Source of the DNA: a virus
Lineage: Duplodnaviria; Caudoviricetes
DNA length: 64,000 nucleotides
Virus record (IMG/VR): IMGVR_UViG_3300028025_002470
Location: 1,709-65,708 of that record
Direction: 5' to 3' (one strand)
The position numbers were made by a program, and so were the translations under genes. How positions within the stretch are numbered: position 1 is the stretch's first letter; every line of letters starts with the position of its first letter. The notes under the pieces are model-generated. The model saw nothing but the letters and a program-made list of their open reading frames with translations, was not told the DNA's origin and did not search any database. Positions 1 to 44,097 of this stretch are shown piece by piece.

Positions 1-96
1 AATCCTGATGCTAAGCATTGTCCTCATGTTAAGGACAACAAAAAATGTGCAATGATTACTGATGGGTCTCTATGTAGATTCCATAAGTAATCCCCC

Positions 97-143
97 GAAC
101 TGCCGACCTAAGCGGTCATTCAGATTCGTTATCTGAGCAGTTC
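97..143 (+). ncRNA. Mini tRNA-like intergenic element, copy 1
   Basis: GAACTGC(97-103)/GCAGTTC(137-143) 7-bp stem; inner hairpin GACC-TAAGC-GGTC; T-arm TCAGA-TTCGTTA-TCTGA; no anticodon arm. Confidence 0.7.
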
Positions 144-163
144 CTTAATAAAAACACACACAT

Positions 164-319
164 ATGGAAGATTTAATATGGGTCGAATGTGGCTATTGCC
201 ATGGCGAACCTGTACCGGAAAAAGACAAAGAGTACTGCGCCTGTCCAACCTGTGACGGAGACGGCGGTTATTACATTCCTAACCAAATTTTACAACATGA
301 AAACGTATGCAGTAGTTAA
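164..319 (+). CDS. Small Zn-finger protein, 51 aa, not in ORF track
   Basis: Translates MEDLIWVECGYCHGEP...CPTCDGDGG, two CxxCxG motifs of DnaJ-like type; A/C-rich leader after element 1. Confidence 0.7.
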   Translation: MEDLIWVECGYCHGEPVPEKDKEYCACPTCDGDGGYYIPNQILQHENVCSS

Positions 320-452
320 AAACCCCTATGGAGGGGTTAAGGTATGGCACAAGAATGGTCGTGCCAAGTGGTACACGATTATAAACCACGAAGACCTAGA
401 AACTTATATAGCTAAACTCGTAGCACAAGGCTACACAAAATTTCAACCATGA
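297..452 (+). CDS. Hypothetical early protein (start ATG 297 rather than 189)
   Basis: MKTYAVVKNP..., overlaps the end of the upstream gene and the start of the next (ATGA). Confidence 0.65.
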   Translation: MKTYAVVKNPYGGVKVWHKNGRAKWYTIINHEDLETYIAKLVAQGYTKFQP

Positions 453-604
453 AGCTAGTTTACTCCCGAACCAAGCGTGTTCGCCGGTCCTTCACTATTG
501 AGGACCAAATCTTTAAAAAGTACATCGCATTGTATGGTTTTAAGGAAGCTAAGATAAAGTTCAAACTGCTCAAATTGAGAATCGAATTAAACCAACCGGT
601 ATGA
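449..604 (+). CDS. Hypothetical basic protein, 51 aa
   Basis: MKLVYSRTKRVRRSF..., ATGA overlaps at both ends. Confidence 0.55.
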   Translation: MKLVYSRTKRVRRSFTIEDQIFKKYIALYGFKEAKIKFKLLKLRIELNQPV

Positions 605-690
605 AAGATAAACAACTGCTTCTGATAGTTTTGCTGCTGATAGTGTTTGCCCTTACAATTGCAGGGAATAGTTCACCCGAATGTTGGTAA
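601..690 (+). CDS. Small single-TM membrane peptide, 29 aa
   Basis: MKDKQLLLIVLLLIVFALTIAGNSSPECW; stop lies just before element 2. Confidence 0.55.
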   Translation: MKDKQLLLIVLLLIVFALTIAGNSSPECW

Positions 691-698
691 ACACCCCC

Positions 699-741
699 GA
701 ACTGCAATGGTTGTATACCGGTTCGATTCCGGTAGCAGTTC
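699..741 (+). ncRNA. Mini tRNA-like intergenic element, copy 2
   Basis: GAACTGC-aatggttgta-TACCGG-TTCGATT-CCGGTA-GCAGTTC. Confidence 0.8.
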
Positions 742-759
742 CTCATCAAACCATGATTT

Positions 760-921
760 ATGACTATCGAACTAGACATCCTAGAGCTCATCGACCTCAG
801 AGTTCTATGCAAGGTTAGGCTCATGAAACTACAAGAAACTAACGTGAAAAATGAGGTGCTGAAAGAGATTATTGCAAAGGAGATTGCCAAATTAGAAAAC
901 CTTTTAAACAAATTACAATGA
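760..921 (+). CDS. Hypothetical coiled-coil protein, 53 aa
   Basis: MTIELDILELIDLRVLCK...; ATGA overlap with the gene at 918. Confidence 0.6.
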   Translation: MTIELDILELIDLRVLCKVRLMKLQETNVKNEVLKEIIAKEIAKLENLLNKLQ

Positions 922-1262
922 AGTATGTACACATTTCCACTTGGAACGGCGCAGACATGGACCTCCACAACTACGCCAAGATAGTTGATATTGATCCAGA
1001 ATCCTATCTCGATTCGCTCATTGAACCGGAGTTCGAGGTCAACAAAAAAGAGCGGATGCTAGAGTATTTTACCTTGGATGACGATGGCGAAATTATTGAC
1101 TTTGGTAGGCACACGCTGATTCCATATGAGGGGCATTTTGCGGTGGATATTAGCTGCAATATCAACACGTTTGATATACTGACCAAGGAAGAGTACAAAG
1201 TGGCTAGAAAAGGCTTCTATGACGACGGAGAGTACTACCGTAAGGTTATGAAGATATCCTAA
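918..1262 (+). CDS. Hypothetical acidic early protein
   Basis: 114-aa ORF in the operon; stop just before element 3. Confidence 0.75.
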   Translation: MKYVHISTWNGADMDLHNYAKIVDIDPESYLDSLIEPEFEVNKKERMLEYFTLDDDGEIIDFGRHTLIPYEGHFAVDISCNINTFDILTKEEYKVARKGFYDDGEYYRKVMKIS

Positions 1263-1270
1263 GCACCCCC

Positions 1271-1313
1271 GAACTGCAATGGTTGTACGGACGTTCGATT
1301 CGTCCGGCAGTTC
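1271..1313 (+). ncRNA. Mini tRNA-like intergenic element, copy 3
   Basis: GAACTGC-aatggttgta-CGGACG-TTCGATT-CGTCCG-GCAGTTC; T-stem differs from copy 2 but stays fully paired. Confidence 0.8.
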
Positions 1314-1333
1314 CTCAACAAAAACACAACACC

Positions 1334-1543
1334 ATGACAATTTCATTTGCCGGTACTGAATTATCGATTGAAGCCGTAACTATCCGTGACAAGGATAACG
1401 TCAGCTCTGTATGGTTATCCCCATATGAAACTGATGGGAATCAGGCTTATCCATGCGAACCTGAGAATGCACAGTTTTTTAGGATACTCAAAAAAGACTT
1501 ACATGACAGGGTTAGTGTAGTCGCCGACGTATTCGTTTACTGA
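1334..1543 (+). CDS. Hypothetical early protein (start ATG 1334)
   Basis: MTISFAGTELSIEAV... after an A/C-rich leader; the track start at 1283 lies inside the RNA element. Confidence 0.7.
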   Translation: MTISFAGTELSIEAVTIRDKDNVSSVWLSPYETDGNQAYPCEPENAQFFRILKKDLHDRVSVVADVFVY

Positions 1544-1578
1544 ATTGGATGTAGGGAGGTTCGATTCCTCCCTCAGTA
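1538..1578 (+). ncRNA. Mini tRNA-like intergenic element, copy 4
   Basis: TACTGA-attggatgta-GGGAGG-TTCGATT-CCTCCC-TCAGTA; the 5' strand contains the upstream TGA stop. Confidence 0.8.
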
Positions 1579-1597
1579 CCTCATCAAATCTAGAACC

Positions 1598-1750
1598 ATG
1601 AAATTTATCATTACAAGAACCTACGAGACAATCATCGAGGTGGACGCAGAAGACCTCGAGACAGCAGAAAAGCAGTTGGCTGAGATTGATATTTACGTCG
1701 TTGAATTAGAGCAGTGCTGTGTTGTTGACGAGACAATCACACACGAATAA
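1598..1750 (+). CDS. Hypothetical acidic protein, 50 aa
   Basis: MKFIITRTYETIIEVDAEDLETAE...; fills the gap between elements 4 and 5. Confidence 0.7.
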   Translation: MKFIITRTYETIIEVDAEDLETAEKQLAEIDIYVVELEQCCVVDETITHE

Positions 1751-1790
1751 ACTGAATGGTTGTAAGCAGGGTTCGATTCCCTGCTCAGTT
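1750..1790 (+). ncRNA. Mini tRNA-like intergenic element, copy 5
   Basis: AACTGA-atggttgtaa-GCAGGG-TTCGATT-CCCTGC-TCAGTT. Confidence 0.8.
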
Positions 1791-1810
1791 CCTCATCAAA
1801 ATCATGAACC

Positions 1811-2179
1811 ATGCTTGAAATCATCAAAGAAGCCTACACCGAAGTTGTAGAAGAGTTTAGTATAGAGTTCCGTACCGATAAATACGGCGGCTATTCATTC
1901 CCCTGCGACTACAAAGGCAATGTGCTAGAGTTAAACCCATATGCACAAGCCAATTACGAGAAGTGCCTATCCGGAGAGATTGAGGCTAGTGCGCCGTTTG
2001 TTAGTAGTTTGGTCAGGCATATCAGACATCCTAGGATATGCAGGTGCGAATGCGGTGACGAGTTGCCAATGGAGTGGGATAGCGAAGGTTTGGTTTACTG
2101 CCATTGTGGTAAGACATTCAACACATCAGGTCAGTCTATTCGTCCACGTTCAGAATGGGAAGAAAGATATGATTATTAA
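1811..2179 (+). CDS. Hypothetical Zn-ribbon protein
   Basis: CECG...CHCG motifs near the C-terminus. Confidence 0.75.
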   Translation: MLEIIKEAYTEVVEEFSIEFRTDKYGGYSFPCDYKGNVLELNPYAQANYEKCLSGEIEASAPFVSSLVRHIRHPRICRCECGDELPMEWDSEGLVYCHCGKTFNTSGQSIRPRSEWEERYDY

Positions 2180-2186
2180 TTCCCCC

Positions 2187-2232
2187 GAACTGCGAGGTAT
2201 GACCGAAGTCGGATCGAAACCGACCGCAGTTC
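2187..2232 (+). ncRNA. Mini tRNA-like intergenic element, copy 6
   Basis: GAACTGCG-aggtatgaccgaa-GTCGG-ATCGAAA-CCGAC-CGCAGTTC. Confidence 0.75.
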
Positions 2233-2251
2233 CTTATCAAAACCAAGAACC

Positions 2252-2437
2252 ATGTTTCTATTAATGTTTCCTGATAGGGCGAAAGCCTTAGCTGAATCCT
2301 TCGAACACTTTATGGTTGAGTACACGATTACTCCGCACGACAGCAGGTTTGTTAAGGTCGAATTCGAACCTAACGAATCATCACATTTTGCAGCATTTTA
2401 CGCTGGTACTATTCACTCAAATAAAAACAACACATGA
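2252..2437 (+). CDS. Hypothetical protein
   Basis: 61-aa ORF directly after element 6. Confidence 0.65.
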   Translation: MFLLMFPDRAKALAESFEHFMVEYTITPHDSRFVKVEFEPNESSHFAAFYAGTIHSNKNNT

Positions 2438-2613
2438 CTTTTAAAATCACAGAAAACGAGGGTCGTATTGAGGCTCTTATCGATGGCTCACTTATAGACA
2501 TCATTGGCGGAATAGGAGCGGCTTGTCTTGAAGACGAGCGAGTTATGGAGATTCTTGAAGCCACCCTGCAATTTGTTAAGAGGTATAAATTTGAAAACAC
2601 AAATCTGAACTAA
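2434..2613 (+). CDS. Hypothetical protein, 59 aa, not in ORF track
   Basis: MTFKITENEGRIEALIDG...; ATGA and TAATG overlaps with neighbours. Confidence 0.65.
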   Translation: MTFKITENEGRIEALIDGSLIDIIGGIGAACLEDERVMEILEATLQFVKRYKFENTNLN

Positions 2614-2804
2614 TGAACGAAAACGCACTCAAAGGTGACAGCACCATCGAAATCAAAGAAACGTATTGCGGACCAATGCATGGAGTAGGCTTCTCCAAGA
2701 CCGATGGATATATAATGCCAAAGGAGGAATACTATGCAGAACTCCGCAAGAATGGGTACACAATTGAATTCACTGAAAACGGCGTAATATGCTCTATAAA
2801 GTAA
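2613..2804 (+). CDS. Hypothetical protein
   Basis: Coupled ORF in the early operon. Confidence 0.65.
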   Translation: MNENALKGDSTIEIKETYCGPMHGVGFSKTDGYIMPKEEYYAELRKNGYTIEFTENGVICSIK

Positions 2805-3058
2805 TCGACACCGAAGACGGCTTCGATGTATACACCGAAGACGGAGGCATCGCTAAGGTCAACCTAGACGGCAATCAGTGGGTGACTAGCTACTATCAAG
2901 ACAGAGTTGGAGACCTGCCTGACATATGGATGGCGATGTCACAAGGACGCGTCTATACCAAGGTGTGGGAAGGTACACCAACAAGGCAGGAGATAGTGCA
3001 GGACGCTCTTGAATGGCTGGTTATGTTTGAGGGTGACTTTGAAGAAGGAGAATTTTAA
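2789..3058 (+). CDS. Hypothetical acidic protein
   Basis: 89-aa ORF overlapping the upstream gene. Confidence 0.65.
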   Translation: MLYKVIDTEDGFDVYTEDGGIAKVNLDGNQWVTSYYQDRVGDLPDIWMAMSQGRVYTKVWEGTPTRQEIVQDALEWLVMFEGDFEEGEF

Positions 3059-3067
3059 AACCAATAT

Positions 3068-3220
3068 ATGACAGCAATTATCATTCAGCAGCAAGGCGAA
3101 TCTATGCAGACAATTACCATTGTAAAGGACGGCTCAACTCGGATCATCCTAGTTAAGGATGGCAAGATTCTGAGTACCGACCCTAAAGATATCGAAATTT
3201 GTAAGGTGTTAGTTTCATAG
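3068..3220 (+). CDS. Hypothetical protein, 50 aa, not in ORF track
   Basis: MTAIIIQQQGESMQTITIVKDG..., ends just before a terminator. Confidence 0.6.
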   Translation: MTAIIIQQQGESMQTITIVKDGSTRIILVKDGKILSTDPKDIEICKVLVS

Positions 3221-3228
3221 GTGTTTAT

Positions 3229-3259
3229 CCCCTGACGTTTCTACGTTGGGGGTTTTTTT
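3229..3259 (+). terminator. Intrinsic terminator, TTTCTA-loop family copy 1
   Basis: CCCCTGACG-TTTCTA-CGTTGGGGG followed by T7. Confidence 0.8.
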
Positions 3260-3292
3260 AAATCGGGGACAGGAATACTGAACACAATTACC

Positions 3293-3547
3293 ATGAGAGG
3301 AACAATTGAATATCCCATCAATGGCACACCGCTAGAGATTTTTGTACACGGCGACGTCGTTGGTATATTGCATGACCACGAGGTCTACGTCCACAAGATT
3401 ATCGCCAAACTGAACAAGACAGAAGTATTCCGGTATGAAGACGGCGAAGAGAAGGGTCTGCTGATGATGACCGATATGTCTGAAGAGATACGGAATTTCA
3501 TATCAGCGTATTTAGTAGAATTAAAATTTTATTATGAGCAAGTTTAA
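3293..3547 (+). CDS. Hypothetical protein
   Basis: 84-aa ORF with A/C-rich leader. Confidence 0.65.
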   Translation: MRGTIEYPINGTPLEIFVHGDVVGILHDHEVYVHKIIAKLNKTEVFRYEDGEEKGLLMMTDMSEEIRNFISAYLVELKFYYEQV

Positions 3548-3764
3548 ACAAGTCATGGATTCGATTCAGCAAGGGTTATCGTTTAGCTGGGGGTTCGGGG
3601 GTTTTGGAGAACCAAGAGCAACCGACCTCAGAGACTCCTGCTTTGCCAATGAAGAGCAGAAGGTAGCACACCACCTGCAAATATTCATAACTAGGGCGCT
3701 CTTCGATAGTGGCAGAACGATAAGTTTTATCAAGGAAGGTGAACAAATAAAAATCTATTACTAA
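3534..3764 (+). CDS. Hypothetical protein
   Basis: 76-aa coupled ORF. Confidence 0.6.
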   Translation: MSKFKQVMDSIQQGLSFSWGFGGFGEPRATDLRDSCFANEEQKVAHHLQIFITRALFDSGRTISFIKEGEQIKIYY

Positions 3765-3967
3765 TGGAATTTAACGAATGGATGGCGTACATTTACAGAA
3801 TGAATGGACACCCCGAATTTAAAATCAGAACATATGAGCAGACTTGGAAACATCAAGCTAATATTCCGGACAATCAACGACGGGTTGATGAGGGTGGAAG
3901 CATTGCCCCATGCAGAGAGGGTGAGAACATTACAATCGCTAAGGGAAATAAACGAGGAGTTGTGTGA
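3764..3967 (+). CDS. Hypothetical protein
   Basis: TAATG coupling; overlaps the next ORF extensively, so the 3' part is uncertain. Confidence 0.4.
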   Translation: MEFNEWMAYIYRMNGHPEFKIRTYEQTWKHQANIPDNQRRVDEGGSIAPCREGENITIAKGNKRGVV

Positions 3968-4031
3968 TTATGTAATCGATATGGTAAAGTATGTAGAAAA
4001 AGAGAAGAATGAAACAAGAAAAGTTCAATGA
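3834..4031 (+). CDS. Hypothetical helical protein (probable start ATG 3834)
   Basis: MSRLGNIKLIFRTIND..., overlaps the next gene start. Confidence 0.55.
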   Translation: MSRLGNIKLIFRTINDGLMRVEALPHAERVRTLQSLREINEELCDYVIDMVKYVEKEKNETRKVQ

Positions 4032-4338
4032 GTTGATAGCAATGTCTCCGGTCAAATTAGACAAGAGCAGACGGAAAGAAGTCATACACGCCAAGAGCGC
4101 CATTATAAACGTAATGAGGCGCTATTACTCAACCACGACGGTTGAGTTGGCTCAGATGCTAGACATTCACCATTCGACGGTGATACACCACACAGATGAC
4201 CATGCTAGTAGGTACAGGTTTGAGAGTGCATATGCCGACCTCTATGACAGGATGGTAAGGCATATCATAAAGACGGATGGCATCGTGGATAGCAAGAGTA
4301 TGATTGAATTAATTAGAGAAAATCTAGCGGTAAAATAA
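4009..4338 (+). CDS. DnaA C-terminal-like helix-turn-helix DNA-binding protein
   Basis: TTVELAQMLDIHHSTVIHH resembles the DnaA domain IV signature (xDHxTVxH). Confidence 0.65.
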   Translation: MKQEKFNELIAMSPVKLDKSRRKEVIHAKSAIINVMRRYYSTTTVELAQMLDIHHSTVIHHTDDHASRYRFESAYADLYDRMVRHIIKTDGIVDSKSMIELIRENLAVK

Positions 4339-4349
4339 CCCTTGTGCTT

Positions 4350-4449
4350 TGTCGCCGTGGCTGGGTAAGATGTAGCTCTACTGCGTTTCGATCCGCGAAT
4401 AAATCAGTCGATAAGTAGAGCAGGCGGGTGGCAACTATCCAGAAGTTGC
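4350..4449 (+). ncRNA. Structured non-coding RNA of unknown class
   Basis: No ORF; stems GCTCTACT(4375-4382)/AGTAGAGC(4414-4421), TGTCGCC/GGTGGCA, GCAACT/AGTTGC. Confidence 0.45.
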
Positions 4450-4453
4450 AAAT

Positions 4454-4569
4454 ACCGAGAGTGGCGGAAGGATAGGGGAGTCACCCTGTCTTGGTAGACG
4501 CTATACGTAGATAACAACCATTAATTAATAGGGCGTGTTATCGTGCAGGTTCGAATCCTGCCTCTCGGT
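4454..4569 (+). tRNA. Aberrant tRNA-like gene with no assignable anticodon
   Basis: Acceptor (A)CCGAGAG/CTCTCGG(T); Leu-type D-arm TGGCGGAA...TGGTAGACGC; canonical T-arm GCAGG-TTCGAAT-CCTGC; hairpin inserted in the D-loop; oversized anticodon region; no CCA. Confidence 0.7.
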
Positions 4570-4593
4570 CACAGGTTTTTCATGGTTCATAAC

Positions 4594-4622
4594 GCCCGAT
4601 GTTTCTACATTGGGCTCTTTTT
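4594..4622 (+). terminator. Intrinsic terminator, TTTCTA-loop family copy 2
   Basis: GCCCGATG-TTTCTA-CATTGGGC then TCTTTTT. Confidence 0.75.
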
Positions 4623-4645
4623 AAAATCACAAACACATTAAGATT

Positions 4646-4927
4646 ATGACACGAGCAGAACAAAAAACAAACAAGGAAAGACAGCTACTAAAGGAACTCA
4701 TCGATAAGATGTTTGAAATAGCAGGACATGATGTTAAGTTTGAAGATGTAGAAGGTCGTACTGATGAGTGGTATCGACAATACACCATGACTGAGGCCCA
4801 AAACAAGGAATGGAGAGAATGGGGAACTAAACACATCAAAAAGAAGAAACGCTATTATTCAAAGATAGCTGCACGTGAAATGGCTTGGCTTGATCTCTAT
4901 TGTGGACTTAAAATTGAAAACAAATAA
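4646..4927 (+). CDS. Hypothetical protein
   Basis: 93-aa ORF with a good leader. Confidence 0.75.
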   Translation: MTRAEQKTNKERQLLKELIDKMFEIAGHDVKFEDVEGRTDEWYRQYTMTEAQNKEWREWGTKHIKKKKRYYSKIAAREMAWLDLYCGLKIENK

Positions 4928-4928
4928 C

Positions 4929-5117
4929 ATGGAAAAGACCGCAGTTGAATGGTTAGAATGGTTGTTTAAAGAAGGCATACTCAATCAAAAATCTTTTGAA
5001 ATAGCCAAACAAAAGGAGAAGGAGCAGATAAGAATAGCTTTCACGGATGGTCATTGGGATGGGCAGTTTAAGAAATTAACATCAGAGGAATATTACAATG
5101 AGCAATATGGAAAGTAA
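4929..5117 (+). CDS. Hypothetical protein (start ATG 4929)
   Basis: MEKTAVEWL...AKQKEKEQI...EYYNEQY, a pattern I associate with Bacteroidota phage small proteins. Confidence 0.7.
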   Translation: MEKTAVEWLEWLFKEGILNQKSFEIAKQKEKEQIRIAFTDGHWDGQFKKLTSEEYYNEQYGK

Positions 5118-5433
5118 AGCATGTACTAAATGTAGGGCAGTGAAACCACTCTCTGATTTTTGTGTAAAGACGTACTACAGGGGTGGTTATAACAACTACT
5201 GCAAGAGATGTCAGGCTTTGTATGTTAGGAAGACTGTAGACAAGGCACACAAGGAAGGCAAGAAGACCTGTAATACCTGCAATGAGGAGCGTGAGTATAG
5301 GTTCTTTTCAAGGAGTAAATCCGGTAAAGATGGTTACGTGGTAAGGTGTAAGCTCTGTCAGGCTGATGCAAAAAAGAAACCCTTGGCGGATATTAATTAC
5401 GCCGAATTCTATTACCCAATACGATTAGATTGA
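5098..5433 (+). CDS. Tandem Zn-ribbon protein
   Basis: Two repeats of CxxC...F...CKxC. Confidence 0.7.
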   Translation: MSNMESKACTKCRAVKPLSDFCVKTYYRGGYNNYCKRCQALYVRKTVDKAHKEGKKTCNTCNEEREYRFFSRSKSGKDGYVVRCKLCQADAKKKPLADINYAEFYYPIRLD

Positions 5434-5615
5434 AAGCTATAATAAAATTCAACAGCGGTAATCTGGCTATACTATGCTCTAAGTGCAAGGCTATAATCAA
5501 AACAGGTCATAAGTTTAACAAAGAAGAAGAGGCATTTGCTTTGGGCAAAGGCCACCTGCCTCCACAGTATTGTCGTACTTGTAGTACTAAAGAAGAAGAA
5601 AAACTAAACCAATAA
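5430..5615 (+). CDS. Small Zn-finger protein
   Basis: CSKC...YCRTC. Confidence 0.65.
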   Translation: MKAIIKFNSGNLAILCSKCKAIIKTGHKFNKEEEAFALGKGHLPPQYCRTCSTKEEEKLNQ

Positions 5616-5616
5616 T

Positions 5617-6336
5617 ATGTATTTACAGGCAGTAACAGTTTGCGTAAACTATTCAGACTTTTTGGCTCAGACAATAGCCAACAACAAGAACATCTTCAAT
5701 CACTGGCTTATCATAACTACTCCAGATGATAAGAAGACACAAAGGCTTTGTCATCATCACAACGTTGAGTGTTTAACCACCAATGTATTCACGGAGCAGG
5801 GAGATCCATTTAACAAAGCCAGAGGTATCAACATTGGTCTTGATTACATGACCAAGCATGATTGGGTATTACATCTTGATGCGGACATTTACTTACCGCC
5901 ACTTACAAGAGGTATACTAGAAAGGATATCCTTGAACGATAAGAACATCTATGGTATAGACAGGATGATGTGTCCAACCTTTGAAGAATGGAATAAGTAT
6001 GTTAAGAACCCCGAGCCGTCACATTCTGGATGGGTTTATATACACGGTAATGCATTCCCATTTGGCGTAAGGATTGGCGAGTACATGTCTGAGGGTTACG
6101 AGCCTATTGGTTTCTTTCAGCTCTGGAATCCTAACGGTTCGGGGGTAAAGAGGTATCCAGAAACACACGGCGCAGCAGACAGAACCGATGTTCAATTCGC
6201 CAAGAAGTGGTCTAGAGCTAACCGCGTACTCATACCAGAGATCATCGGAATACATCTCGACTCAGAGAACAGCACCGTAGAGGAGATGGGTAAGAACTGG
6301 AATGGCAGGAGGACAAAAGAGTTTGGCGGATACTAG
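5617..6336 (+). CDS. Glycosyltransferase, GT-A (GT2-like) fold
   Basis: FNKARGINIG, WVLHLDADI (DxD motif), GFFQL, HGAADRTD. Confidence 0.8.
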   Translation: MYLQAVTVCVNYSDFLAQTIANNKNIFNHWLIITTPDDKKTQRLCHHHNVECLTTNVFTEQGDPFNKARGINIGLDYMTKHDWVLHLDADIYLPPLTRGILERISLNDKNIYGIDRMMCPTFEEWNKYVKNPEPSHSGWVYIHGNAFPFGVRIGEYMSEGYEPIGFFQLWNPNGSGVKRYPETHGAADRTDVQFAKKWSRANRVLIPEIIGIHLDSENSTVEEMGKNWNGRRTKEFGGY

Positions 6337-6413
6337 TAAACGTGTGGATAAAAAACGAAAGAAAAATTTGGTATGTAATATGTAGAGCCATATAAAAAGC
6401 GGATCTTTGCATT

Positions 6414-6653
6414 ATGAAATACGACTACGTCAAGGACGTATTAAGATATAATGGGAAGTCATACCCACTATCAGACTACCGAGCGTGGCTGATAAGAAAT
6501 CATGAATCCCTATGTACAAACCACTTTGTTAAAGCAATCCGCTCCAAGGGGAAGACTGTCTTCACATTTGACTGGCAGTCTATCTTCTTGAGGGCAGAAG
6601 AGTATCAATTCCTAAACGATTATATAAATGAAAGCAATTCTTCAAGCTTATGA
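6414..6653 (+). CDS. Hypothetical protein
   Basis: 79-aa ORF after an AT-rich promoter-like gap. Confidence 0.65.
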   Translation: MKYDYVKDVLRYNGKSYPLSDYRAWLIRNHESLCTNHFVKAIRSKGKTVFTFDWQSIFLRAEEYQFLNDYINESNSSSL

Positions 6654-7309
6654 ATAGGTATTATGTATATGCGCATTATAAGTTAGACGGAGATGGTACT
6701 ATCCCGTTTTATATCGGTAAGGGTAGTAGGAAGAGGTGCAAGTCGAAATGCAGAAGTAAGTATTGGACTGATATTGTTTCTAAGCACGGACTATCTGTAG
6801 AAATTCTTAAGGATGGAATGTCAGAGGAAGACGCATTCATCTATGAGATACAGATGATATCATATTATAAATCACTTGGCGGATGCGAGTGTAATTTTAC
6901 TATAGGCGGAGACGGTGTACGTGTTGATAGGAGGTGGTGGAATGACAAGATTTCACAATCTCTCCAAAACATATTTAGGCCATCTGGTCCAGATAGTAAG
7001 TCATACAAAAATGTACTTACTAAGGAGGAGTTGACTCACCTATATGTAGAGAAGGGATTATCATCTGTAGAAATAGCTGAACTAAAAGACCTGTCCCCAC
7101 CAACAGTATGCGCTAGGCTTGTTGACTTTGGGATTCAGACCAGAAAACCATCCAGAAAACCCATACCAGTATACTGCATAAACAATAACAAAAAGTACGA
7201 CAGCTTAATGGACGCAGCTAAGGACTTAGGTGTGCACAGGGAAAATATTAAGAAAGTACTACAAGGCAAATACAGTCAGACAGGAGGTTACAAATTTAAA
7301 TCAATATAA
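6650..7309 (+). CDS. GIY-YIG-type free-standing homing endonuclease with C-terminal NUMOD1-like HTH
   Basis: YYVYAH...FYIGKG..R, conserved E and N, C-terminal YDSLMDAAKDLG...GGYKF. Confidence 0.8.
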   Translation: MNRYYVYAHYKLDGDGTIPFYIGKGSRKRCKSKCRSKYWTDIVSKHGLSVEILKDGMSEEDAFIYEIQMISYYKSLGGCECNFTIGGDGVRVDRRWWNDKISQSLQNIFRPSGPDSKSYKNVLTKEELTHLYVEKGLSSVEIAELKDLSPPTVCARLVDFGIQTRKPSRKPIPVYCINNNKKYDSLMDAAKDLGVHRENIKKVLQGKYSQTGGYKFKSI

Positions 7310-7312
7310 AGT

Positions 7313-7876
7313 ATGAAAAGTTTATTAAAAAAGCTTCACGAGTTCAATTCAAAAGTTAAGCCAGTTGTAAAGGGTTCAGATAACCCGTATTTCAAATCGA
7401 AATTTGCTAGTCTAGATTCTATTCAGCACCACATTGCACCACACCTAAAGGAGTTTGGATTGGTAATAACACAAGCAAGTGTTGTTATTAATGACCATCC
7501 ATATGTAGAGTCTACAGTTTGGGACGTTGATACTGGTGAGTGTATAAAATCGGTATTCCCTGTTGTAGTCAACAAACCGACTGCACAAGATTATGGTAGC
7601 GCTGTTTCTTACGCTAAGCGATACTCTATTACTGGTCTATTAAATCTTATAGTAGCTAACGAGGACGATGACGCCAATACGGTAAGTGTAAACAACCCTA
7701 CAAACGATCTTCCCAAGGACAAGTACGATCTGATGATTAAGTACATCGCCGATGGTAAGATTAAAGAGGTGGAGTCAGCCATTAAGAAGTACACCCTGAC
7801 CGATGTCCAGAGCAAAGAGATCTCTACATTGATTAACAAGGCGAAGTCACAAGCCATAACCAAAGCAGCGAAATGA
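7313..7876 (+). CDS. erf: ERF-family single-strand annealing protein
   Basis: NPYFKSKFASL and GSAVSYAKRYSITGLLNL..EDDDA signature. Confidence 0.9.
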   Translation: MKSLLKKLHEFNSKVKPVVKGSDNPYFKSKFASLDSIQHHIAPHLKEFGLVITQASVVINDHPYVESTVWDVDTGECIKSVFPVVVNKPTAQDYGSAVSYAKRYSITGLLNLIVANEDDDANTVSVNNPTNDLPKDKYDLMIKYIADGKIKEVESAIKKYTLTDVQSKEISTLINKAKSQAITKAAK

Positions 7877-8847
7877 TTAAGTATACCCAAACATCCGAAC
7901 TTTCTGAACCACAATGGCAAGAGCTCCGGCAGTCCTTCGTTAATCGAGGGATGGTCGGTGGCTCTGACGCCGGAACTTTACTTAACCTAAACAAGTATAA
8001 GTCTCCTATCAACCTGTTCTATCAGGCGATTGGTCAGAACAAGCTCCCGAACATTATGAACGGCGCCATGCTTCACGGCAAGCAGCTAGAGGATTACGTA
8101 GCTGGTTGCTGGCAGTACTATGATGGCACAGAAGAAGGCTGGGTGGCTAACACCTTAGCTGACAACAAGATTAAAAGTTACGAGAAGGTCAGAGCTATCA
8201 TTGAGAACACTGAGTATCCTTTTCTTTTCGCCAATGTTGATGGTATTATTACCAAGCACCCAGACAGAGAAGATAAAGGCATCCTAGAGGTTAAGACCAT
8301 GAGTGGTTATGCTGCTGATACTTATGAGGGTGGTATCCCCCCGAGCTACCTCATTCAGCTACAGCACTACATGCTTGTCACCGGTCTTAAGTGGGGCGAG
8401 ATTGTTTACCTTAAGGATGGCAGAGAGTTAGGTTGTGTGACCTTTGATGCAGACATCGAACTTCAAGACAGGATACTGGCTTCAGCTGAGGACTTCTATA
8501 CTAGGGTTAATGAGGCTAGGAAGCACATGGAGAAAGAGCCTGATATGGCTGAGCATATAGCTGCCCAATATGAGCCAGATGCTGACGCTTCAATGGCGTT
8601 CAATGACTTCATATCAGAGAAGCATAAGGCTCGGGAGAATGAGGTTGCTATGCAAGGAGACGAAGAGCATCAGCAGTGGGCAGAGATGTACAAGGCATAC
8701 AGCGATCAGCTCAAGGCAGCAGAGCAGGACAAACAATACTATCAAAACAAACTCAAGCAGGTGATGGAGCGTGAAGGCGCTACAATTATGCACCTGCCAA
8801 ACGGAAAGATAACATGGAGAAAAGCATTCAACCTGAAGCTGTTTTAG
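7873..8847 (+). CDS. YqaJ / lambda-exonuclease-like recombination nuclease
   Basis: GGSDAG, NKYKSP, ANVDG, LEVKT, YLIQLQHYM motifs; adjacent to ERF. Confidence 0.9.
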   Translation: MIKYTQTSELSEPQWQELRQSFVNRGMVGGSDAGTLLNLNKYKSPINLFYQAIGQNKLPNIMNGAMLHGKQLEDYVAGCWQYYDGTEEGWVANTLADNKIKSYEKVRAIIENTEYPFLFANVDGIITKHPDREDKGILEVKTMSGYAADTYEGGIPPSYLIQLQHYMLVTGLKWGEIVYLKDGRELGCVTFDADIELQDRILASAEDFYTRVNEARKHMEKEPDMAEHIAAQYEPDADASMAFNDFISEKHKARENEVAMQGDEEHQQWAEMYKAYSDQLKAAEQDKQYYQNKLKQVMEREGATIMHLPNGKITWRKAFNLKLF

Positions 8848-9041
8848 AAGACCTTAGAAAAACCTTCGCCGTCTGGAGAATGGTAAGAGATAGCAGTCAA
8901 GGCATTGACACTTGGCAGTGGCAGAAGAACATGAGGGAAACAGACAAGGTGGTGTCTCTTGTTATCGACGAGCTAATCAAGGAGGGAAGGGTAGAGTACT
9001 GGGAACAAATTAAAGAGAAATTATATGATACGACTGAGTGA
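8814..9041 (+). CDS. Hypothetical protein
   Basis: Coupled ORF. Confidence 0.6.
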   Translation: MEKSIQPEAVLEDLRKTFAVWRMVRDSSQGIDTWQWQKNMRETDKVVSLVIDELIKEGRVEYWEQIKEKLYDTTE

Positions 9042-9414
9042 TTTACAGAAGGCAATGAAGGGACAATTTATATGGGACCATGCAGGCGTAAGACCAATGC
9101 AGGTGCAGGAGGTTTATGAGGGTAATAAAGAGCTTGCAAGGACCATCTTTGTAGGGCTAGCTGACATGTATGGGTTTAGTTCCGCAGATGTCATGAACCA
9201 CATTGATTGTGGTTATGATTCATATAGGAATAAGATTCAGATATTCAGAGAATACTACAAGGTTGGCAGGCAGCGAGAAGCAGATGGTGCGCTGAGAGAT
9301 TACGATGACGCCATTACTAAGTTCTATGTTAAGACCTGCCTTTGCCTAAACTGTATCACATACAGCCTTAACAGGAATCAGTATATCAAACTGGAAAACT
9401 ATCTGAATGTATGA
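9025..9414 (+). CDS. Hypothetical protein, possible HTH
   Basis: 129-aa coupled ORF. Confidence 0.65.
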   Translation: MIRLSDLQKAMKGQFIWDHAGVRPMQVQEVYEGNKELARTIFVGLADMYGFSSADVMNHIDCGYDSYRNKIQIFREYYKVGRQREADGALRDYDDAITKFYVKTCLCLNCITYSLNRNQYIKLENYLNV

Positions 9415-9992
9415 ATCTAAACGTGGACACAGAGGTGATGGTCAGATTAGGACTGTCACCAACCCAATACTTGGTGGCGCAACTATGCTCTGCCTATTCG
9501 TTCCTGATGAAGGGAACGGGTGTTGGTCGTATCGCTGAGGTCCTCGATGTTGATTCTGGTTCTATCACAAAGGCAATGCGCCATCTTATTGATGTTGGTC
9601 TTCTTGAAAAGAAAGACAATGGATTCTTCTACCCATCACAGAAGTGGTATATAGCACACGATGGCGAAGAGGTAGCTGTTGTATCAGAGGCAGACACGAT
9701 AGGCTCAGAGGTGATAGAATACTTCAATCAAATCAACGGGACTAAGTACCAACTGACCAATGCTGAGTATATTAAGAAGATACTCAAAGCCAATCCTAAA
9801 TTAACCATAAACCATTTCAAGAGTGTGATTGTGCATAAGCATGACACTTGGGGTATTGATGATAAGATGAAAGAGTACAACAGACCTTCGACCCTGTTCT
9901 CATCTAAGTTCCTCAAGTATCTGGACGATGCCAACCACTATTGGATAAACAAACAAAAGAATGATTCAGCAACTGAGATCACTGGGAATTAA
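9411..9992 (+). CDS. Replication initiator-like protein (winged HTH plus conserved phage C-terminal domain)
   Basis: N-terminal RIAEVLDVDSGSITKAMRHL; C-terminal EVIEYFN...RPSTLFSSKFLKYL; directly upstream of the primase-helicase. Confidence 0.7.
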   Translation: MNLNVDTEVMVRLGLSPTQYLVAQLCSAYSFLMKGTGVGRIAEVLDVDSGSITKAMRHLIDVGLLEKKDNGFFYPSQKWYIAHDGEEVAVVSEADTIGSEVIEYFNQINGTKYQLTNAEYIKKILKANPKLTINHFKSVIVHKHDTWGIDDKMKEYNRPSTLFSSKFLKYLDDANHYWINKQKNDSATEITGN

Positions 9993-11697: not shown

Positions 11698-11962
11698 GGC
11701 TACGTGGAGAGCATTCAACAGCGGAGGTAAATGGTTAGAGTTTACAAAGGATAGAGAAGGAGACTTGCTAGAGCCACTGAAGCTTGAGGATATCAAACCT
11801 AATACGCTGTATTATATGCAGCAGGTCTGGAAGCCAAACGAGTTTCATCCAACATACTTTGACCCAGCAGTTAGCTGGGACACCATACAAGAGCTACATA
11901 AAACAGGAAGACTATGGCGATTAATCCCAGAGCAAAAGGACACAAGTACGAGCTGGACATAA
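11612..11962 (+). CDS. Hypothetical protein
   Basis: 116-aa ORF bridging helicase and resolvase; start uncertain. Confidence 0.55.
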   Translation: MMARTKRTSSVNQPEKKSKGSRNSQVIFKATWRAFNSGGKWLEFTKDREGDLLEPLKLEDIKPNTLYYMQQVWKPNEFHPTYFDPAVSWDTIQELHKTGRLWRLIPEQKDTSTSWT

Positions 11963-12255
11963 GAGATTGGTTCATAAAGAAAGGCTGGACCAAGGCAGTA
12001 AGCTCCCGATCTGAAAGTAAAAGAAAGGACGATCAGGGTGTGGACCTGTGCTATACAGACCCACTGTCAATACAATGTAAAGCCGTAGAGAAACTCGGCA
12101 GTGTGCACGACATACTTAACCGTATGCCTAAGGATGAGAACTATAACCTAGTCTTCCACAAGAAGAACAGAAAGGGTACTATTGTATGTATGACCCTCGA
12201 AGACTTTGAAGAAATTTTGGACATGTTGATTCACAATAACATTATTAAGCCATGA
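11914..12255 (+). CDS. Holliday junction resolvase, Hjc-like PD-(D/E)xK
   Basis: NPRAKGHKYEL...GVDL...IQCK. Confidence 0.8.
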   Translation: MAINPRAKGHKYELDIRDWFIKKGWTKAVSSRSESKRKDDQGVDLCYTDPLSIQCKAVEKLGSVHDILNRMPKDENYNLVFHKKNRKGTIVCMTLEDFEEILDMLIHNNIIKP

Positions 12256-12464
12256 AAGAAAACATAAAGAGGGTATTAACAAACCATTCGCAATCATCCG
12301 CAGAGGGGCTATTGATGCTCGTTGGCGGAACGCTAGATCAGTTACATGAAGCACTTGATGAGCTTATTGAAGAGGGTTGGCTAACCACATCAACCACAGA
12401 CTGGATGGATATGAAGGTTACTGTATATAAAAAGAAGAAGCCAAAGCAGGCAAAATTATTTTAA
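12252..12464 (+). CDS. Small winged-helix-like protein
   Basis: LHEALDELIEEGWL pattern. Confidence 0.55.
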   Translation: MKENIKRVLTNHSQSSAEGLLMLVGGTLDQLHEALDELIEEGWLTTSTTDWMDMKVTVYKKKKPKQAKLF

Positions 12465-12504
12465 CAATTACTAATTGATAGGACGTTTGAATATTATTAA
12501 ACCT

Positions 12505-12512
12505 TAACTTTG
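12505..12512 (+). promoter_or_regulatory. Bacteroidota -7 promoter box
   Basis: TAACTTTG matches TAnnTTTG, intergenic, with TTTG upstream. Confidence 0.6.
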
Positions 12513-12516
12513 ACAC

Positions 12517-12869: not shown

Positions 12870-12871
12870 AC

Positions 12872-12898
12872 AAGGGGGCTAGTCCCCCTTCCCTTTTT
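12872..12898 (+). terminator. Intrinsic terminator
   Basis: AAGGGGG-ctagt-CCCCCTT followed by a pyrimidine/T tract. Confidence 0.55.
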
Positions 12899-14856: not shown

Positions 14857-14938
14857 TATCCTATAGAGATACGGCATATAGCACTAGCGCGCCTAATTAG
14901 TATCAATAATTTTGTGTATATTTGAGCGAATTATACTC

Positions 14939-43161: not shown

Positions 43162-43211
43162 TATGCAAATATCATTATGTGATGAGTATTTGTGAATAAA
43201 AAAAGACTATG

Positions 43212-43240
43212 AAAAAGCCCGATGTAGAAACATCAGGCTT
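43212..43240 (-). terminator. Intrinsic terminator, TTTCTA-loop family copy 3
   Basis: On the - strand: AAGCCTGATG-TTTCTA-CATCGGGCTT-TTT. Confidence 0.8.
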
Positions 43241-43263
43241 AAACCAAACAACCGAAACTAAGT

Positions 43264-44097
43264 TTATTTCTTTGACTTCGATTGCAAAGTTTGATAGACC
43301 TTTTCGCCCTTAGGACTGCTTACGCAATAACTAATGAGCTCTTCTATATGATCTGATCCGGTGGTTCTAGATACTGTGAGGATTGCCTCCCCATTAGGCC
43401 AAGCAAACCTAGCCTGCTCTGCGTCGAAGACTATAACACTCTTCTTAATAGCCCTATTGATAGTTGCCTTCATCAAAGCCTGCTTGTTACCAATCAAGTC
43501 AAGGAATGACTGTGGATCGGTATCAGCAAGAGCTTCTAGTTTATTCCTCAACACCTCAAGCTTGTCTGTGTCGTCTTGACCCAGTGCTGCGATATAATTC
43601 CTAACCTCTTCTGCAGTAAGATCTACTGCAAGGTTAAGCGCCTCACGCTTGATGTTCCTCTGCTTGCTTTCCTTCTCACTCTTAGCAGCCTCGTCAACAA
43701 ATTCAAATATTATCTCCTTGCTCTCGTCACGCTTTGGATTAGATCCATTGTAGTTACAGATAGACAGGTATGTGTGAATCTCCTGATCTGCAGCTCTACC
43801 GCCGACAAGAATCAAATGTCCGCCCTGTGATGCAAAGAAATAGATGTCATGAAACAAATGTGATCCGTCAGGGTTGACAGACTTTACAGCAGCGATAGAG
43901 ACATACTCTTCCTTGATAGGATCGTAGATCTCGTCTGTGATTGGAACATTCTTTGCTGCTGGGATGGCGAACTTTCCGGGTTCCCATGGGTGTGGCTGGA
44001 TGCCATTAACACGATAAACGACTTGCTCTCCGGGTTTAAGCTTTGTAGATTCAATGAGTTCGGGAGAGACGTTGTTAAATAATTCTGTTCTTTTCAT
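43264..44097 (-). CDS. Hypothetical protein downstream of the capsid gene
   Basis: 277 aa; position and IFEFVD..K / A..DP..F pattern recall crAss-like capsid neighbours. Confidence 0.7.
   Translation of the reverse strand: MKRTELFNNVSPELIESTKLKPGEQVVYRVNGIQPHPWEPGKFAIPAAKNVPITDEIYDPIKEEYVSIAAVKSVNPDGSHLFHDIYFFASQGGHLILVGGRAADQEIHTYLSICNYNGSNPKRDESKEIIFEFVDEAAKSEKESKQRNIKREALNLAVDLTAEEVRNYIAALGQDDTDKLEVLRNKLEALADTDPQSFLDLIGNKQALMKATINRAIKKSVIVFDAEQARFAWPNGEAILTVSRTTGSDHIEELISYCVSSPKGEKVYQTLQSKSKK

What the first reader, a model, noticed from the sequence alone, without database searches (positions are those of the whole stretch)
4570..4622. tRNA-trailer small RNA is antisense to early-gene start codons
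Seen: directly 3' of the tRNA-like gene lies GGTTTTTCATGGTTCAT, then a terminator. Its reverse complement ATGAACCATGAAAAACC matches start regions that follow the mini-tRNAs: GAACCATGAAA (11 nt, ATG 1598), ATGAACCATG (10 nt, ATG 1811) and GAACCATG (ATG 2252), plus AACCATGAA (ATG 449). Inference: cleavage at the pseudo-tRNA 3' end would release a ~50-nt RNA able to block initiation on several early genes or on host mRNAs with similar starts. This recalls the tRNA-miRNA units of murine gammaherpesvirus.
Basis: partly seen in the sequence, partly recalled or inferred. Interest (0 to 1): 0.75.

Follow-up and report, generated by a model that had tools for sequence, protein, structure and literature searches.

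The report
Terminator trailer mirroring early start codons
A short stretch between a tRNA-like fold and a transcription stop signal in an uncultured freshwater phage is the mirror image of several early-gene start sites, so it could silence them, but nothing yet shows that it does.

Summary
The 17-mer lies at 4574-4590, in a 24-nt unpaired trailer (4570-4593) between a tRNA-like fold (4455-4569) and an intrinsic terminator (4594-4622). Its reverse complement matches start regions at 1593-1603 (11 nt), 1804-1813 (10), 445-453 (9), 2247-2254 and 749-756 (8 each). It is not a minus-strand gene start.

Exact matches are rarer than chance: 0.2-0.7% of natural 24-nt windows do as well. Duplex energies are unremarkable: 7-9% do as well.

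The trailer is absent from all 3 IMG/VR relatives that carry the homologous tRNA-like element. No RNA data exist.

New context: the hairpin belongs to a terminator family with a fixed UUUCUA loop. Its core occurs in at least 118 IMG/VR contigs and 53 bacterial contigs, mostly Chitinophagaceae. The family's U-rich 5' flanks carry UCAU far more often than the reversed word and match their own phage's start regions slightly but significantly better than controls.

Verdict: certainly a terminator trailer. A start-blocking RNA role is plausible (about 0.35) but unproven. The release-by-tRNA-processing step is untested. The other notes of this scan on this genome cover its neighbours, not this trailer.

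The parts
4455..4569 (+). tRNA-like fold. Acceptor CCGAGAG 4455-4461 pairs with CTCTCGG 4562-4568. T arm 4545-4561 has loop TTCGAAT. The Leu-type D arm carries a 21-nt hairpin insert, and one long stem replaces the anticodon and variable arms. Discriminator T4569, no CCA.
   Evidence: Cloverleaf-like minimum-energy fold of -43.5 kcal/mol; 0 of 200 shuffles fold as well. Not called by ARAGORN or Rfam. Homologues in L004, L006 and L039.
4570..4593 (+). Unpaired 3' trailer, the proposed seed. It contains the 17-mer (4574-4590), which is a tandem GGTT(TTT)CAT GGTTCAT.
   Evidence: Predicted unpaired. Matches and statistics.
4594..4622 (+). Intrinsic terminator: stem 4594-4615 with closing G, loop TTTCTA and closing C, then TCTTTTT.
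   Evidence: The hairpin core is found in at least 118 IMG/VR loci and 53 genome contigs.
1593..1603 (+). Best exact target: 11 nt across ATG 1598, in the leader after mini-tRNA unit 4.
   Evidence: Duplex -16.4 kcal/mol, 0 of 300 shuffles as good. Cofold gain -15.8.
1804..1813 (+). Second target: 10 nt ending at ATG 1811, after mini-tRNA unit 5.
   Evidence: Duplex -18.0 kcal/mol, 0 of 300 shuffles as good. Cofold gain -14.7.
2247..2254 (+). Target of 8 nt at ATG 2252, after mini-tRNA unit 6.
   Evidence: Duplex -12.2 kcal/mol, 9 of 300 shuffles as good.
445..453 (+). Target of 9 nt at ATG 449.
   Evidence: Duplex -12.3 kcal/mol, 26 of 300 shuffles as good.
4584..4641 (+). Small + strand ORF of 19 codons that starts in the trailer, runs through the terminator and stops 4 nt before ATG 4646. 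This is the basis of a rival reading.
   Evidence: Part of the ORF 4543..4641 listed. Frame read.
3203..3262 (+). Sister terminator T1 with the same loop. Its flank has no long match to any start region (7 nt).
43200..43266 (-). Sister terminator T3. Its hairpin is 20 of 22 identical to that of T2. Its flank matches 11 nt just 5' of the ATG of gene 46396.

Best explanation
4570-4622 is the 3'-terminal module of the second early transcription unit: genes 3293-4338, a conserved leader-like element, the tRNA-like fold, and then this module. The module is a 24-nt unstructured trailer followed by an intrinsic terminator of a type common in Chitinophagaceae and their phages, with a variable stem, a fixed UUUCUA loop and a U tract.

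Its shown role is to stop transcription. Under this reading, the trailer's likeness to the mirror image of start sites comes from two things meeting. One is a trait that this terminator family shares: a U-rich, C-poor 5' flank that often carries UUCAU and GGUU. The other is the ACC-AUG-AAA start context that is peculiar to the leftmost early genes. No dedicated trans-acting RNA need be assumed.

Shown: sequence, fold, terminator features, family membership and complementarity. Inferred: that termination happens here, and that the pairing has no consequence.
For: - Terminator features are present.
- In the family, 79 of 92 unique instances have a same-strand open frame of 50 codons or more ending within 80 nt upstream.
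- T2's flank motifs are typical of the family. TCAT occurs in 22 of 61 non-redundant 3' UTRs and GGTT in 31 of 61.
- Duplex energies are ordinary. 7-9% of natural windows equal T2. The flanks of T1 and T3 score alike: 21 and 9 start regions at or below -12 kcal/mol, against 14 for T2.
- The trailer and terminator are absent after the homologous tRNA-like element in L004, L006 and L039, where a leader and an ATG follow instead.
- Contigs of runs X7 and X8 continue with other sequence after the T arm (table 7).
- Patterns anchored on either side of the trailer found no relative in IMG/VR and only 3 chance matches in the JGI metagenomes.
Against: - Exact complementarity exceeds chance: 0.2-0.7% of natural windows do as well, and 4 of 200 shuffles.
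- It is concentrated on the early genes. Five of the 7 start regions with 8 nt or more lie in 1-2300.
- Two of the 3 terminator flanks in this window have an 11-nt match.
- Across the family, flanks match start regions of their own locus better than a parallel-complement control (8.66 against 8.15 nt, Wilcoxon p=0.012) and better than start regions of other loci (8.69 against 7.94, p=0.0006).
- The excess of TCAT over its reverse (22 against 4) is absent from upstream coding sequence (867 against 829) and from 53 unrelated terminator flanks (4 against 3).
- Together these points suggest that the flank trait itself may exist for pairing.
Confidence: 0.45

Rival explanations
1. Anti-start RNA. 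The free trailer pairs with ACC-AUG-type start regions of early genes (1598, 1811, 2252, 449, weakly 3293) and blocks 30S binding. The host appears to lack Shine-Dalgarno pairing and so depends on unstructured A-rich leaders.

Two routes are possible:
(a) In trans. Cleavage after the discriminator of the tRNA-like fold, or ordinary decay down to the protective terminator hairpin, leaves an RNA of about 53 nt.
(b) In cis, on unprocessed or read-through transcripts. I give this about 0.15.

Made from the second early unit, the RNA would shut off the first.
For: - Seed-plus-hairpin architecture.
- Duplexes of -18.0 and -16.4 kcal/mol across the start codons, each with 0 of 300 shuffles as good.
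- Targets stay accessible in cofolds, with gains about 6 kcal/mol beyond two controls.
- Exact-match rarity.
- Only 10 of 79 called starts have an SD-like 4-mer, and leaders are 44% A.
- Family-wide signals.
- Striking cases elsewhere. In L025 and L028 the flank mirrors 12 and 11 nt of the leader of the first gene of the same operon, with different sequences in the two. In L007 and L008 it mirrors 11-12 nt including the ATG. In L206 and L254 it mirrors 17 nt.
- 3' trailer RNAs that act by pairing are known in E. coli (Lalaouna 2015, as cited in passages of PMC9514646).
Against: - No RNA evidence exists.
- The trailer is not conserved beyond near-identical strains. X2 is identical over 4267-5133. 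X3 has one contig over 4544-4725 with 5 differences whose positions were not shown.
- The energy measure is ordinary.
- T1 has no target.
- The family effect is small: 42 flanks beat the control, 21 tie and 26 lose.
- Pairing with the first gene of T2's own unit is weak: -12.4 kcal/mol, with 60 of 300 shuffles as good.
Confidence: 0.35
2. Relic. The trailer is a decayed, inverted copy of a leader plus start codon, left by recombination at the conserved gene-boundary sequences of this mosaic early region. The similarity is then not accidental, but it has no function.
For: - The reverse complement reads like a start region followed by only 4 or 21 codons.
- The early region is mosaic: the 63 loci found with the neighbouring 93-aa protein have other upstream neighbours.
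- In L254 and three identical-flank loci, the flank is an exact inverted copy of a start-region word (AAAATTAAAAGTATG) used before many genes, followed by 3 codons.
Against: - A relic should decay, yet the TCAT excess recurs across 61 non-redundant flanks.
- In L025 and L028, flank and leader differ together.
- Only 10 of 92 family instances have an opposite-strand ORF of 50 codons or more from which such relics could derive.
Confidence: 0.1
3. Upstream ORF. ATG 4584 opens a 19-codon frame that runs through the terminator hairpin and stops at 4639-4641, 4 nt before ATG 4646. Ribosomes translating it would melt the terminator and couple expression of 4646 to read-through.
For: The frame is present. 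Only 24 nt separate the U tract from ATG 4646, so no room is apparent for a separate promoter.
Against: - The context before ATG 4584 is U-rich, unlike the A/C-rich leaders of called genes.
- ATG is not enriched in the family's 3' UTRs: 39 occurrences against 33 for the reversed word.
- In most family members, upstream genes stop before the hairpin.
Confidence: 0.05
4. Promoter overlap. The conserved loop and 3' arm (TACATTGG, TACGTTGG in T1) resemble the Bacteroidota -7 element TAnnTTTG, a motif I recall from memory. The hairpin DNA would then double as the promoter of the next gene.
For: The word is present in T1, T2 and T3, and the next ATG is close by in T1 and T2.
Against: The match is imperfect (G in place of the third T). 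In host genomes the same hairpin ends a peptidase gene and 45 of 53 instances are followed by a T-rich tail. No -33 element was sought.
Confidence: 0.03

Closest known systems
3'ETS-leuZ of E. coli, a tRNA 3' external transcribed spacer that acts as an RNA sponge (Lalaouna et al. 2015). I saw it only as cited in passages of PMC9514646.
   Same: An RNA segment between the 3' end of a tRNA-type structure and the operon's intrinsic terminator, proposed to act by base pairing after the precursor is processed.
   Different: That RNA pairs with the small RNAs RyhB and RybB and, as I recall, works with Hfq. Here the partners would be mRNA start regions, the upstream fold is not a recognisable tRNA, and the likely host phylum has, as I recall, no Hfq. 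Release and function are untested here.
icaR mRNA of Staphylococcus aureus, in which the 3' UTR pairs with its own 5' UTR (PMC3868564; title and start of abstract seen in the listing).
   Same: A 3' UTR sequence complementary to the translation start region. This best fits the operons in L025, L028, L007 and L008, where the flank mirrors the leader of the same operon's first gene.
   Different: The icaR motif is an anti-Shine-Dalgarno sequence acting in cis, as I recall with RNase III. T2's best partners lie in another transcription unit, and its own unit's first start pairs only weakly.
tRNA-miRNA units (TMERs) of murine gammaherpesvirus 68 (PMC4337559; abstract and passages read).
   Same: A non-charged viral tRNA-like element is followed by a small regulatory RNA made from the same transcript, with RNase Z processing.
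   Different: The TMERs have pol III promoters and pre-miRNA stem-loops that feed the eukaryotic miRNA pathway. Here the hairpin is a 9-pair terminator with a U tract in a bacterial virus. It is a resemblance of layout only.
3' UTR-derived small RNAs of bacteria. PMC7821165 is a review whose title and start of abstract I saw. The examples CpxQ and SroC are recalled.
   Same: A stable 3' fragment ending in the mRNA's own terminator, with a seed just upstream of the hairpin.
   Different: Known cases are chromosomal and mostly Hfq-dependent. None that I know of derives from a phage operon in Bacteroidota.
CI immunity RNA of phage-plasmid P4 (recalled, not looked up).
   Same: A phage antisense RNA cut out of a longer transcript by tRNA-processing enzymes.
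   Different: The P4 RNA is itself the structured, RNase P-processed molecule and causes premature termination. Here the candidate is the unstructured trailer.

Membership tests
Intrinsic (Rho-independent) terminator | G+C-rich hairpin | tested here: met
   9 pairs, of which 5 are G-C. Energy -14.8 kcal/mol; 0 of 200 shuffles fold as well.
Intrinsic (Rho-independent) terminator | U tract directly 3' of the stem | tested here: met
   TCTTTTT at 4616-4622.
Intrinsic (Rho-independent) terminator | Sits at the end of a same-strand transcription unit | tested here: met
   It follows gene 4009-4338 and the tRNA-like fold on the + strand. In the family, 79 of 92 instances follow a same-strand frame of 50 codons or more.
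Intrinsic (Rho-independent) terminator | Stops RNA polymerase in vivo | not testable with these tools
   No RNA run holds the region.
tRNA 3' trailer-derived regulatory RNA (3'ETS type) | Lies between a tRNA 3' end and the operon terminator | tested here: inconclusive
   The position is right, but the upstream fold is not called a tRNA by ARAGORN or Rfam. It keeps the acceptor, T and D arms.
tRNA 3' trailer-derived regulatory RNA (3'ETS type) | Released as a discrete stable RNA | not testable with these tools
   No RNA holder is listed, and only contigs were laid.
tRNA 3' trailer-derived regulatory RNA (3'ETS type) | Pairs with defined partner RNAs | tested here: inconclusive
   Exact matches are rarer than chance, energies are ordinary, and no covariation data exist.
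Herpesvirus tRNA-miRNA unit | tRNA-like element followed by pre-miRNA stem-loops | tested here: not met
   The only hairpin is a 9-pair stem with a 4-nt loop and a U tract.
Cis 5'-3' UTR pairing (icaR type) | The 3' UTR is complementary to the start region of the same mRNA | tested here: not met
   T2 against ATG 3293, the first gene of its own unit, gives -12.4 kcal/mol, and 60 of 300 shuffles do as well. The feature is met in L025, L028, L007 and L008.
Start of a minus-strand protein gene | An open frame of gene length from the ATG | tested here: not met
   Frames of 21 and 4 codons (read). No minus-strand ORF of 30 aa or more starts here. In the family, 10 of 92 instances have an opposite-strand ORF of 50 codons or more.
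Terminator family with UUUCUA loop (Chitinophagaceae and their phages) | Hairpin core CYGATGTTTCTACATYGGG plus a T-rich tail | tested here: met
   T2 and T3 carry the core. It occurs in at least 118 IMG/VR loci and 53 genome contigs, 45 of which have a T-rich tail.

The most novel reading that the evidence does not exclude
In phages of Chitinophagaceae, the U-rich stretch just 5' of UUUCUA-loop terminators may be a built-in anti-start sequence. The stable 3' fragment of an operon, or its intact 3' end, would pair with the leader and start codon of chosen genes of the same phage. This would be a layer of translational control suited to a host that initiates on unstructured A-rich leaders without Shine-Dalgarno pairing. 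In this phage the module would sit behind a tRNA-like fold that provides a clean release site, so that the second early unit switches off the first.
Probability: 0.3. Interest if true: 0.75.

Novelty: new member of a known kind. Interest (0 to 1): 0.42.

Why it matters
If the trailer does pair with early start regions, this would be a phage-encoded small RNA cut from behind a tRNA mimic that times early gene shut-off. It would do so in a host phylum (Bacteroidota) where RNA-based control is little known and where translation starts depend on open leaders.

The wider pattern found here makes the idea testable on many sequences. Terminator flanks across about 90 independent phage contigs match the start regions of their own phage better than controls do. 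If instead the trailer is inert, the finding reduces to an ordinary terminator, and the only gain is a host assignment (Chitinophagaceae) for this uncultured phage group.

Tried and rejected
- tRNA and RNA family searches. ARAGORN found no gene in the window and none at the homologous elements in L004, L006 and L039. Rfam found nothing at gathering level and only chance-level rows at E up to 10.
- Cultured-phage search. Searches for the region and for 1-12000 found no match. A PhoH-like protein gave only distant hits, so the host could not be named that way.
- Search for relatives that keep the trailer.
  - The 93-aa neighbour gave 63 loci, but none has the non-coding element upstream of that gene.
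  - The 109-aa neighbour gave none.
  - A pattern on the T arm plus acceptor found one unrelated tRNA cluster.
  - A pattern on the central stem found only L071, which is the same contig as L006.
  - A gapped pattern from the T loop to the gene start found 0 in IMG/VR and 3 chance matches in the JGI metagenomes.
- No RNA holder was listed among 22 runs.
- Four of those 22 runs were laid, as contigs only. The table of differences was cut (388 rows not shown), so the 5 differences of the X3 contig over 4544-4725 could not be placed and covariation could not be tested.
- Shuffle test of duplex energy. It looked strong (1 of 300 shuffles), but I set it aside because natural windows and the T1 and T3 flanks score alike. 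That signal is compositional: G/U-rich flank against A/C-rich leaders.
- Withdrawn idea: that each flank mirrors the first gene of its own operon. It holds in L025, L028, L007 and L008. It does not hold for T2, and for T3 the target gene is preceded by another ORF and not by a gap.
- Tested and rejected: that the flank is the real start of an opposite-strand gene.
- Unrelated terminators in the fetched loci (55, of which 2 later proved to be family members) show no enrichment: 6.93 against 6.78 nt, p=0.27.
- The flank has no fixed-position motif. Information is at most 0.17 bit per column up to -4.
- Covariation among the L007, L008 and L028 operons gave only three flank types, too few to test.
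- Rfam on four host loci found no family at the conserved 3' UTR.
- Supplements of papers were not opened.

Rows dropped before counts:
- One search missed T3 because its stem extension consumed part of the tail.
- skipped instances within 400 nt of a locus start (92 used).
- One search used 89 unique flanks.
- One search used 76 instances with frames of 50 codons or more, and 61 after a redundancy filter.
- One search used 87 of the 89 flanks.
- The Fisher combination includes homologous pairs (L069 and L070), so it overstates independence.

Full report
What is there. The window is 1709-65708 of a 65.7-kb IMG/VR virus record rated 97% complete. Plus-strand genes fill about 1-16100 and minus-strand genes fill the rest. 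Between the stop of gene 4009-4338 and ATG 4646 lie 307 non-coding bases. They hold three things in order:
(i) A stretch (about 4340-4454) that ends in the hairpin GCAACT-ATCCAGA-AGTTGC (4431-4449).
(ii) A tRNA-like fold (4455-4569). It has a 7-pair acceptor stem, a canonical T arm and a Leu-type D arm with a 21-nt hairpin insert. One long stem stands in place of the anticodon and variable arms. Its fold energy is -43.5 kcal/mol and 0 of 200 shuffles fold as well.
(iii) The finding: a 24-nt trailer (4570-4593) predicted to be unpaired, a 9-pair hairpin (4594-4615) and TCTTTTT.
ARAGORN and Rfam recognise nothing here.

The observation. The 17-mer is at 4574-4590. Its reverse complement matches 1593-1603 (11 nt), 1804-1813 (10), 445-453 (9), 2247-2254 (8) and also 749-756 (8). 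All of these lie at or beside ATG codons in the first 2.3 kb. The minus strand offers only 21- and 4-codon frames from the two ATGs (read; no ORF of 30 aa or more).

Chance. Dinucleotide shuffles of the 24-mer rarely do as well against 79 called start regions. One of 300 shuffles reaches 30 regions at or below -10 kcal/mol, and 14 of 300 reach an 11-nt match. Shuffling destroys CAT, however, so I used natural 24-nt windows of the same genome as the control.
- By energy the trailer is ordinary. 232 of 2500 windows have at least 14 regions at or below -12 kcal/mol, and 168 of 2500 have as low a mean. Among the 797 windows that contain CAT, 57 do as well.
- The flanks of the two sister terminators score the same or better. 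The energy signal is therefore G/U-rich flank meeting A/C-rich leaders.
- By exact matches the trailer is unusual. Of 127,952 windows, 0.21%, 0.68% and 0.38% reach its counts at 8, 9 and 10 nt, and 1.6% reach an 11-nt match.

The targets are one family. ACCATG precedes 6 of 38 called plus-strand starts, all in 1-3300, and none of 41 minus-strand starts. In context, cofolds keep the mini-tRNA hairpins and the terminator folded and pair the trailer across the start codons. The gains are -15.8 (1598), -14.7 (1811), -12.3 (2252), -9.5 (449) and -6.8 kcal/mol (3293), against -9.2 and -6.6 for two control starts.

Relatives.
- The 93-aa protein of 4646-4924 has 63 relatives in IMG/VR, but none has this non-coding block upstream of it.
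- Homologues of the block occur in L006, L004 and L039. There the same hairpin-ended stretch is followed by a tRNA-like fold with the same D, T and acceptor layout and a quite different middle. A short A-rich leader and an ATG then follow directly, with no trailer and no terminator.
- In L069 and L070 the stretch stands alone before a gene.
- Laid contigs show a strain identical over 4267-5133 (X2). One X3 contig covers 4544-4725 with 5 differences whose places were not listed. In X7 and X8, other sequences follow the T arm.
- So the trailer is seen only in near-identical strains. It is not a conserved partner of the tRNA-like fold.

The terminator family. T2, T1 (3229-3252) and T3 (43215-43240, minus strand) share the loop TTTCTA; T2 and T3 are 20 of 22 identical.
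- It also occurs in 53 bacterial contigs. Of their titles, 31 name Chitinophagaceae or genera listed under that family. Ten more name genera that I recall as belonging to it.
- In 31 of the 53 it follows one conserved 3' UTR. In the one case I read, that UTR lies behind a 572-aa gene with an HEGGH zinc-peptidase motif; the name M3 oligoendopeptidase is my recall, not a search result.
- With SD-like words before only 10 of 79 starts and leaders that are 44% A, this points to a Chitinophagaceae host. Bacteroidota generally lack Shine-Dalgarno sequences (PMC3155529; start of abstract seen in the listing).
- In phage contigs the hairpin is a true terminator. 79 of 92 unique instances follow a same-strand frame of 50 codons or more, and only 10 have an opposite-strand ORF of that size starting in the flank.

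Do the flanks of this family mirror start regions in general?
- In the first set of 11 distinct flanks, the longest antiparallel match to start regions of the same locus was 7, 11, 11, 12, 11, 8, 9, 8, 8, 10 and 10 nt. A parallel-complement control, which keeps composition and runs, gave 8, 8, 8, 9, 8, 6, 6, 8, 8, 8 and 7.
- Some cases are striking. In L025 and L028 the flank mirrors 12 and 11 nt of the leader of the first gene of the very operon it ends, and flank and leader both differ between the two loci. In L007 and L008 it mirrors 11-12 nt including the ATG. In L206 and L254 it mirrors 17 nt.
- In the large set (89 unique flanks) the effect is small but significant. The means are 8.66 against 8.15 nt, with 42 higher, 21 equal and 26 lower (Wilcoxon p=0.012). 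Matches of 14 nt or more number 4 against 0.
- Start regions of the flank's own locus are matched better than equal numbers from other family loci: 8.69 against 7.94 nt, 51 against 32, p=0.0006.
- In 61 non-redundant true 3' UTRs, TCAT occurs in 22 and its reverse TACT in 4; TTCAT occurs in 13 and its reverse in 3. No such skew exists in the upstream coding sequence (867 against 829) or in 53 unrelated terminator flanks (4 against 3).
- There is no fixed-position motif, only 45-60% T and 5-10% C.
- Unrelated terminators in the same loci show no enrichment.
- Against the idea: T1 has no match (7 nt). T2 pairs only weakly with the first gene of its own unit. The T3 target is not an operon-first gene.

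Reading. The terminator role is secure on sequence grounds. T2's flank is a typical family flank (a U run, CAU, GGUU), so much of its fit to ACC-AUG-AAA starts comes with the module rather than being tailored to this phage. That is why I rank the inert-trailer reading first (0.45). The family trait itself is not explained by composition. Together with the own-locus preference and the exact-match rarity, this keeps a pairing role well alive (0.35). The minor rivals are a relic of an inverted start region (0.1), a 19-codon upstream ORF through the terminator (0.05) and a promoter in the hairpin (0.03).

Comparison with known systems.
- The layout is that of a tRNA 3' external transcribed spacer RNA of E. 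coli (cited in passages of PMC9514646) and, for the operon cases, of the icaR 5'-3' UTR pairing (PMC3868564; listing).
- It is not a member of the gammaherpesvirus tRNA-miRNA units (PMC4337559), because the hairpin is a terminator and not a pre-miRNA.
- I did not search the literature for phage terminator flanks that mirror start regions, so I make no claim that the pattern is unpublished.

Limits.
- Start regions were called by a simple longest-ORF rule with ATG starts only. This rule mis-set some early starts; for example it used 201 where I read 164.
- Loci are fragments of about 7 kb on either side.
- Family members may be remotely homologous despite the filters.
- No RNA data exist.

Noticed in passing
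window 4340-4454; L006 225-383; L004 1075-1230; L039 1205-1360; L069 7165-7300; L070 9390-9500 (minus strand): A conserved non-coding stretch ends in ...CAGG(T/C)GGGTGGCAACTATCCAGAAGTTGCAAAT, a 6-pair hairpin with a 7-nt loop AUCCAGA shaped like an anticodon arm. It precedes the tRNA-like fold in four phages. In L069 and L070 it stands alone directly before a leader and a gene. Rfam has no match.
   Followed up: partly
window 4470-4544; L004 1240-1300; L006 400-450; L039 1375-1430: The middle of the tRNA-like fold, where the anticodon and variable arms should be, is completely different in each relative, while the acceptor, D and T arms are kept. The D-loop hairpin insert occurs only in the window. 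Contigs of X3, X7 and X8 also jump from 4477/4482 to 4544.
   Followed up: partly
L313-L365 (for example L341 3860-3925, minus strand): In 31 of 53 bacterial contigs, the same terminator hairpin follows a conserved 3' UTR (..TAGCTACTAATCAGAGCCTTAACCAA..). In L341 this lies behind a 572-aa gene with an HEGGH motif. One copy was seen per contig, with no Rfam match. It may be a conserved 3' UTR element or small RNA of Chitinophagaceae.
   Followed up: partly
L008 10160-10310; L012, L015, L010: Operons in these relatives begin with a repeated promoter-and-leader module (..GTCTTAATTTTACTATGTA(A/T)CAAATCAATAATGAATATG). In L008, three direct repeats of about 20 nt (TTATAAC.GATTGATT..CAA) lie between the terminator and the next module.
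   Followed up: no
L011, L024, L031, L036, L057, L197, L206: The 15-mer AAAATTAAAAGTATG recurs as the start region of many genes in several unrelated-looking contigs. This suggests a preferred leader in this host group.
   Followed up: no
L191 7039-7110; L302 about 390-430: Here a family terminator is followed at once by a tRNA-like fold (AGTCAGGTGGCGAAATTGG...), the reverse of the order in the window.
   Followed up: no
window 3203-3228 against 4623-4660: The flank of terminator T1 pairs best with the leader of gene 4646, the first gene after T2: -14.5 kcal/mol, with 9 of 300 shuffles as good.
   Followed up: no
window 61121-62782 (minus strand): A PhoH-like ATPase is interrupted by an intein, with Hint and LAGLIDADG homing endonuclease domains.
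   Followed up: no
window 4009-4338: The gene just upstream of the non-coding block has a weak match to the DnaA C-terminal helix-turn-helix domain (E 1.8e-4, below the Pfam cut-off).
   Followed up: no
window 18079-28137 (minus strand): A single 3352-aa open reading frame. Earlier notes of this scan describe several enzyme-like domains in it.
   Followed up: no
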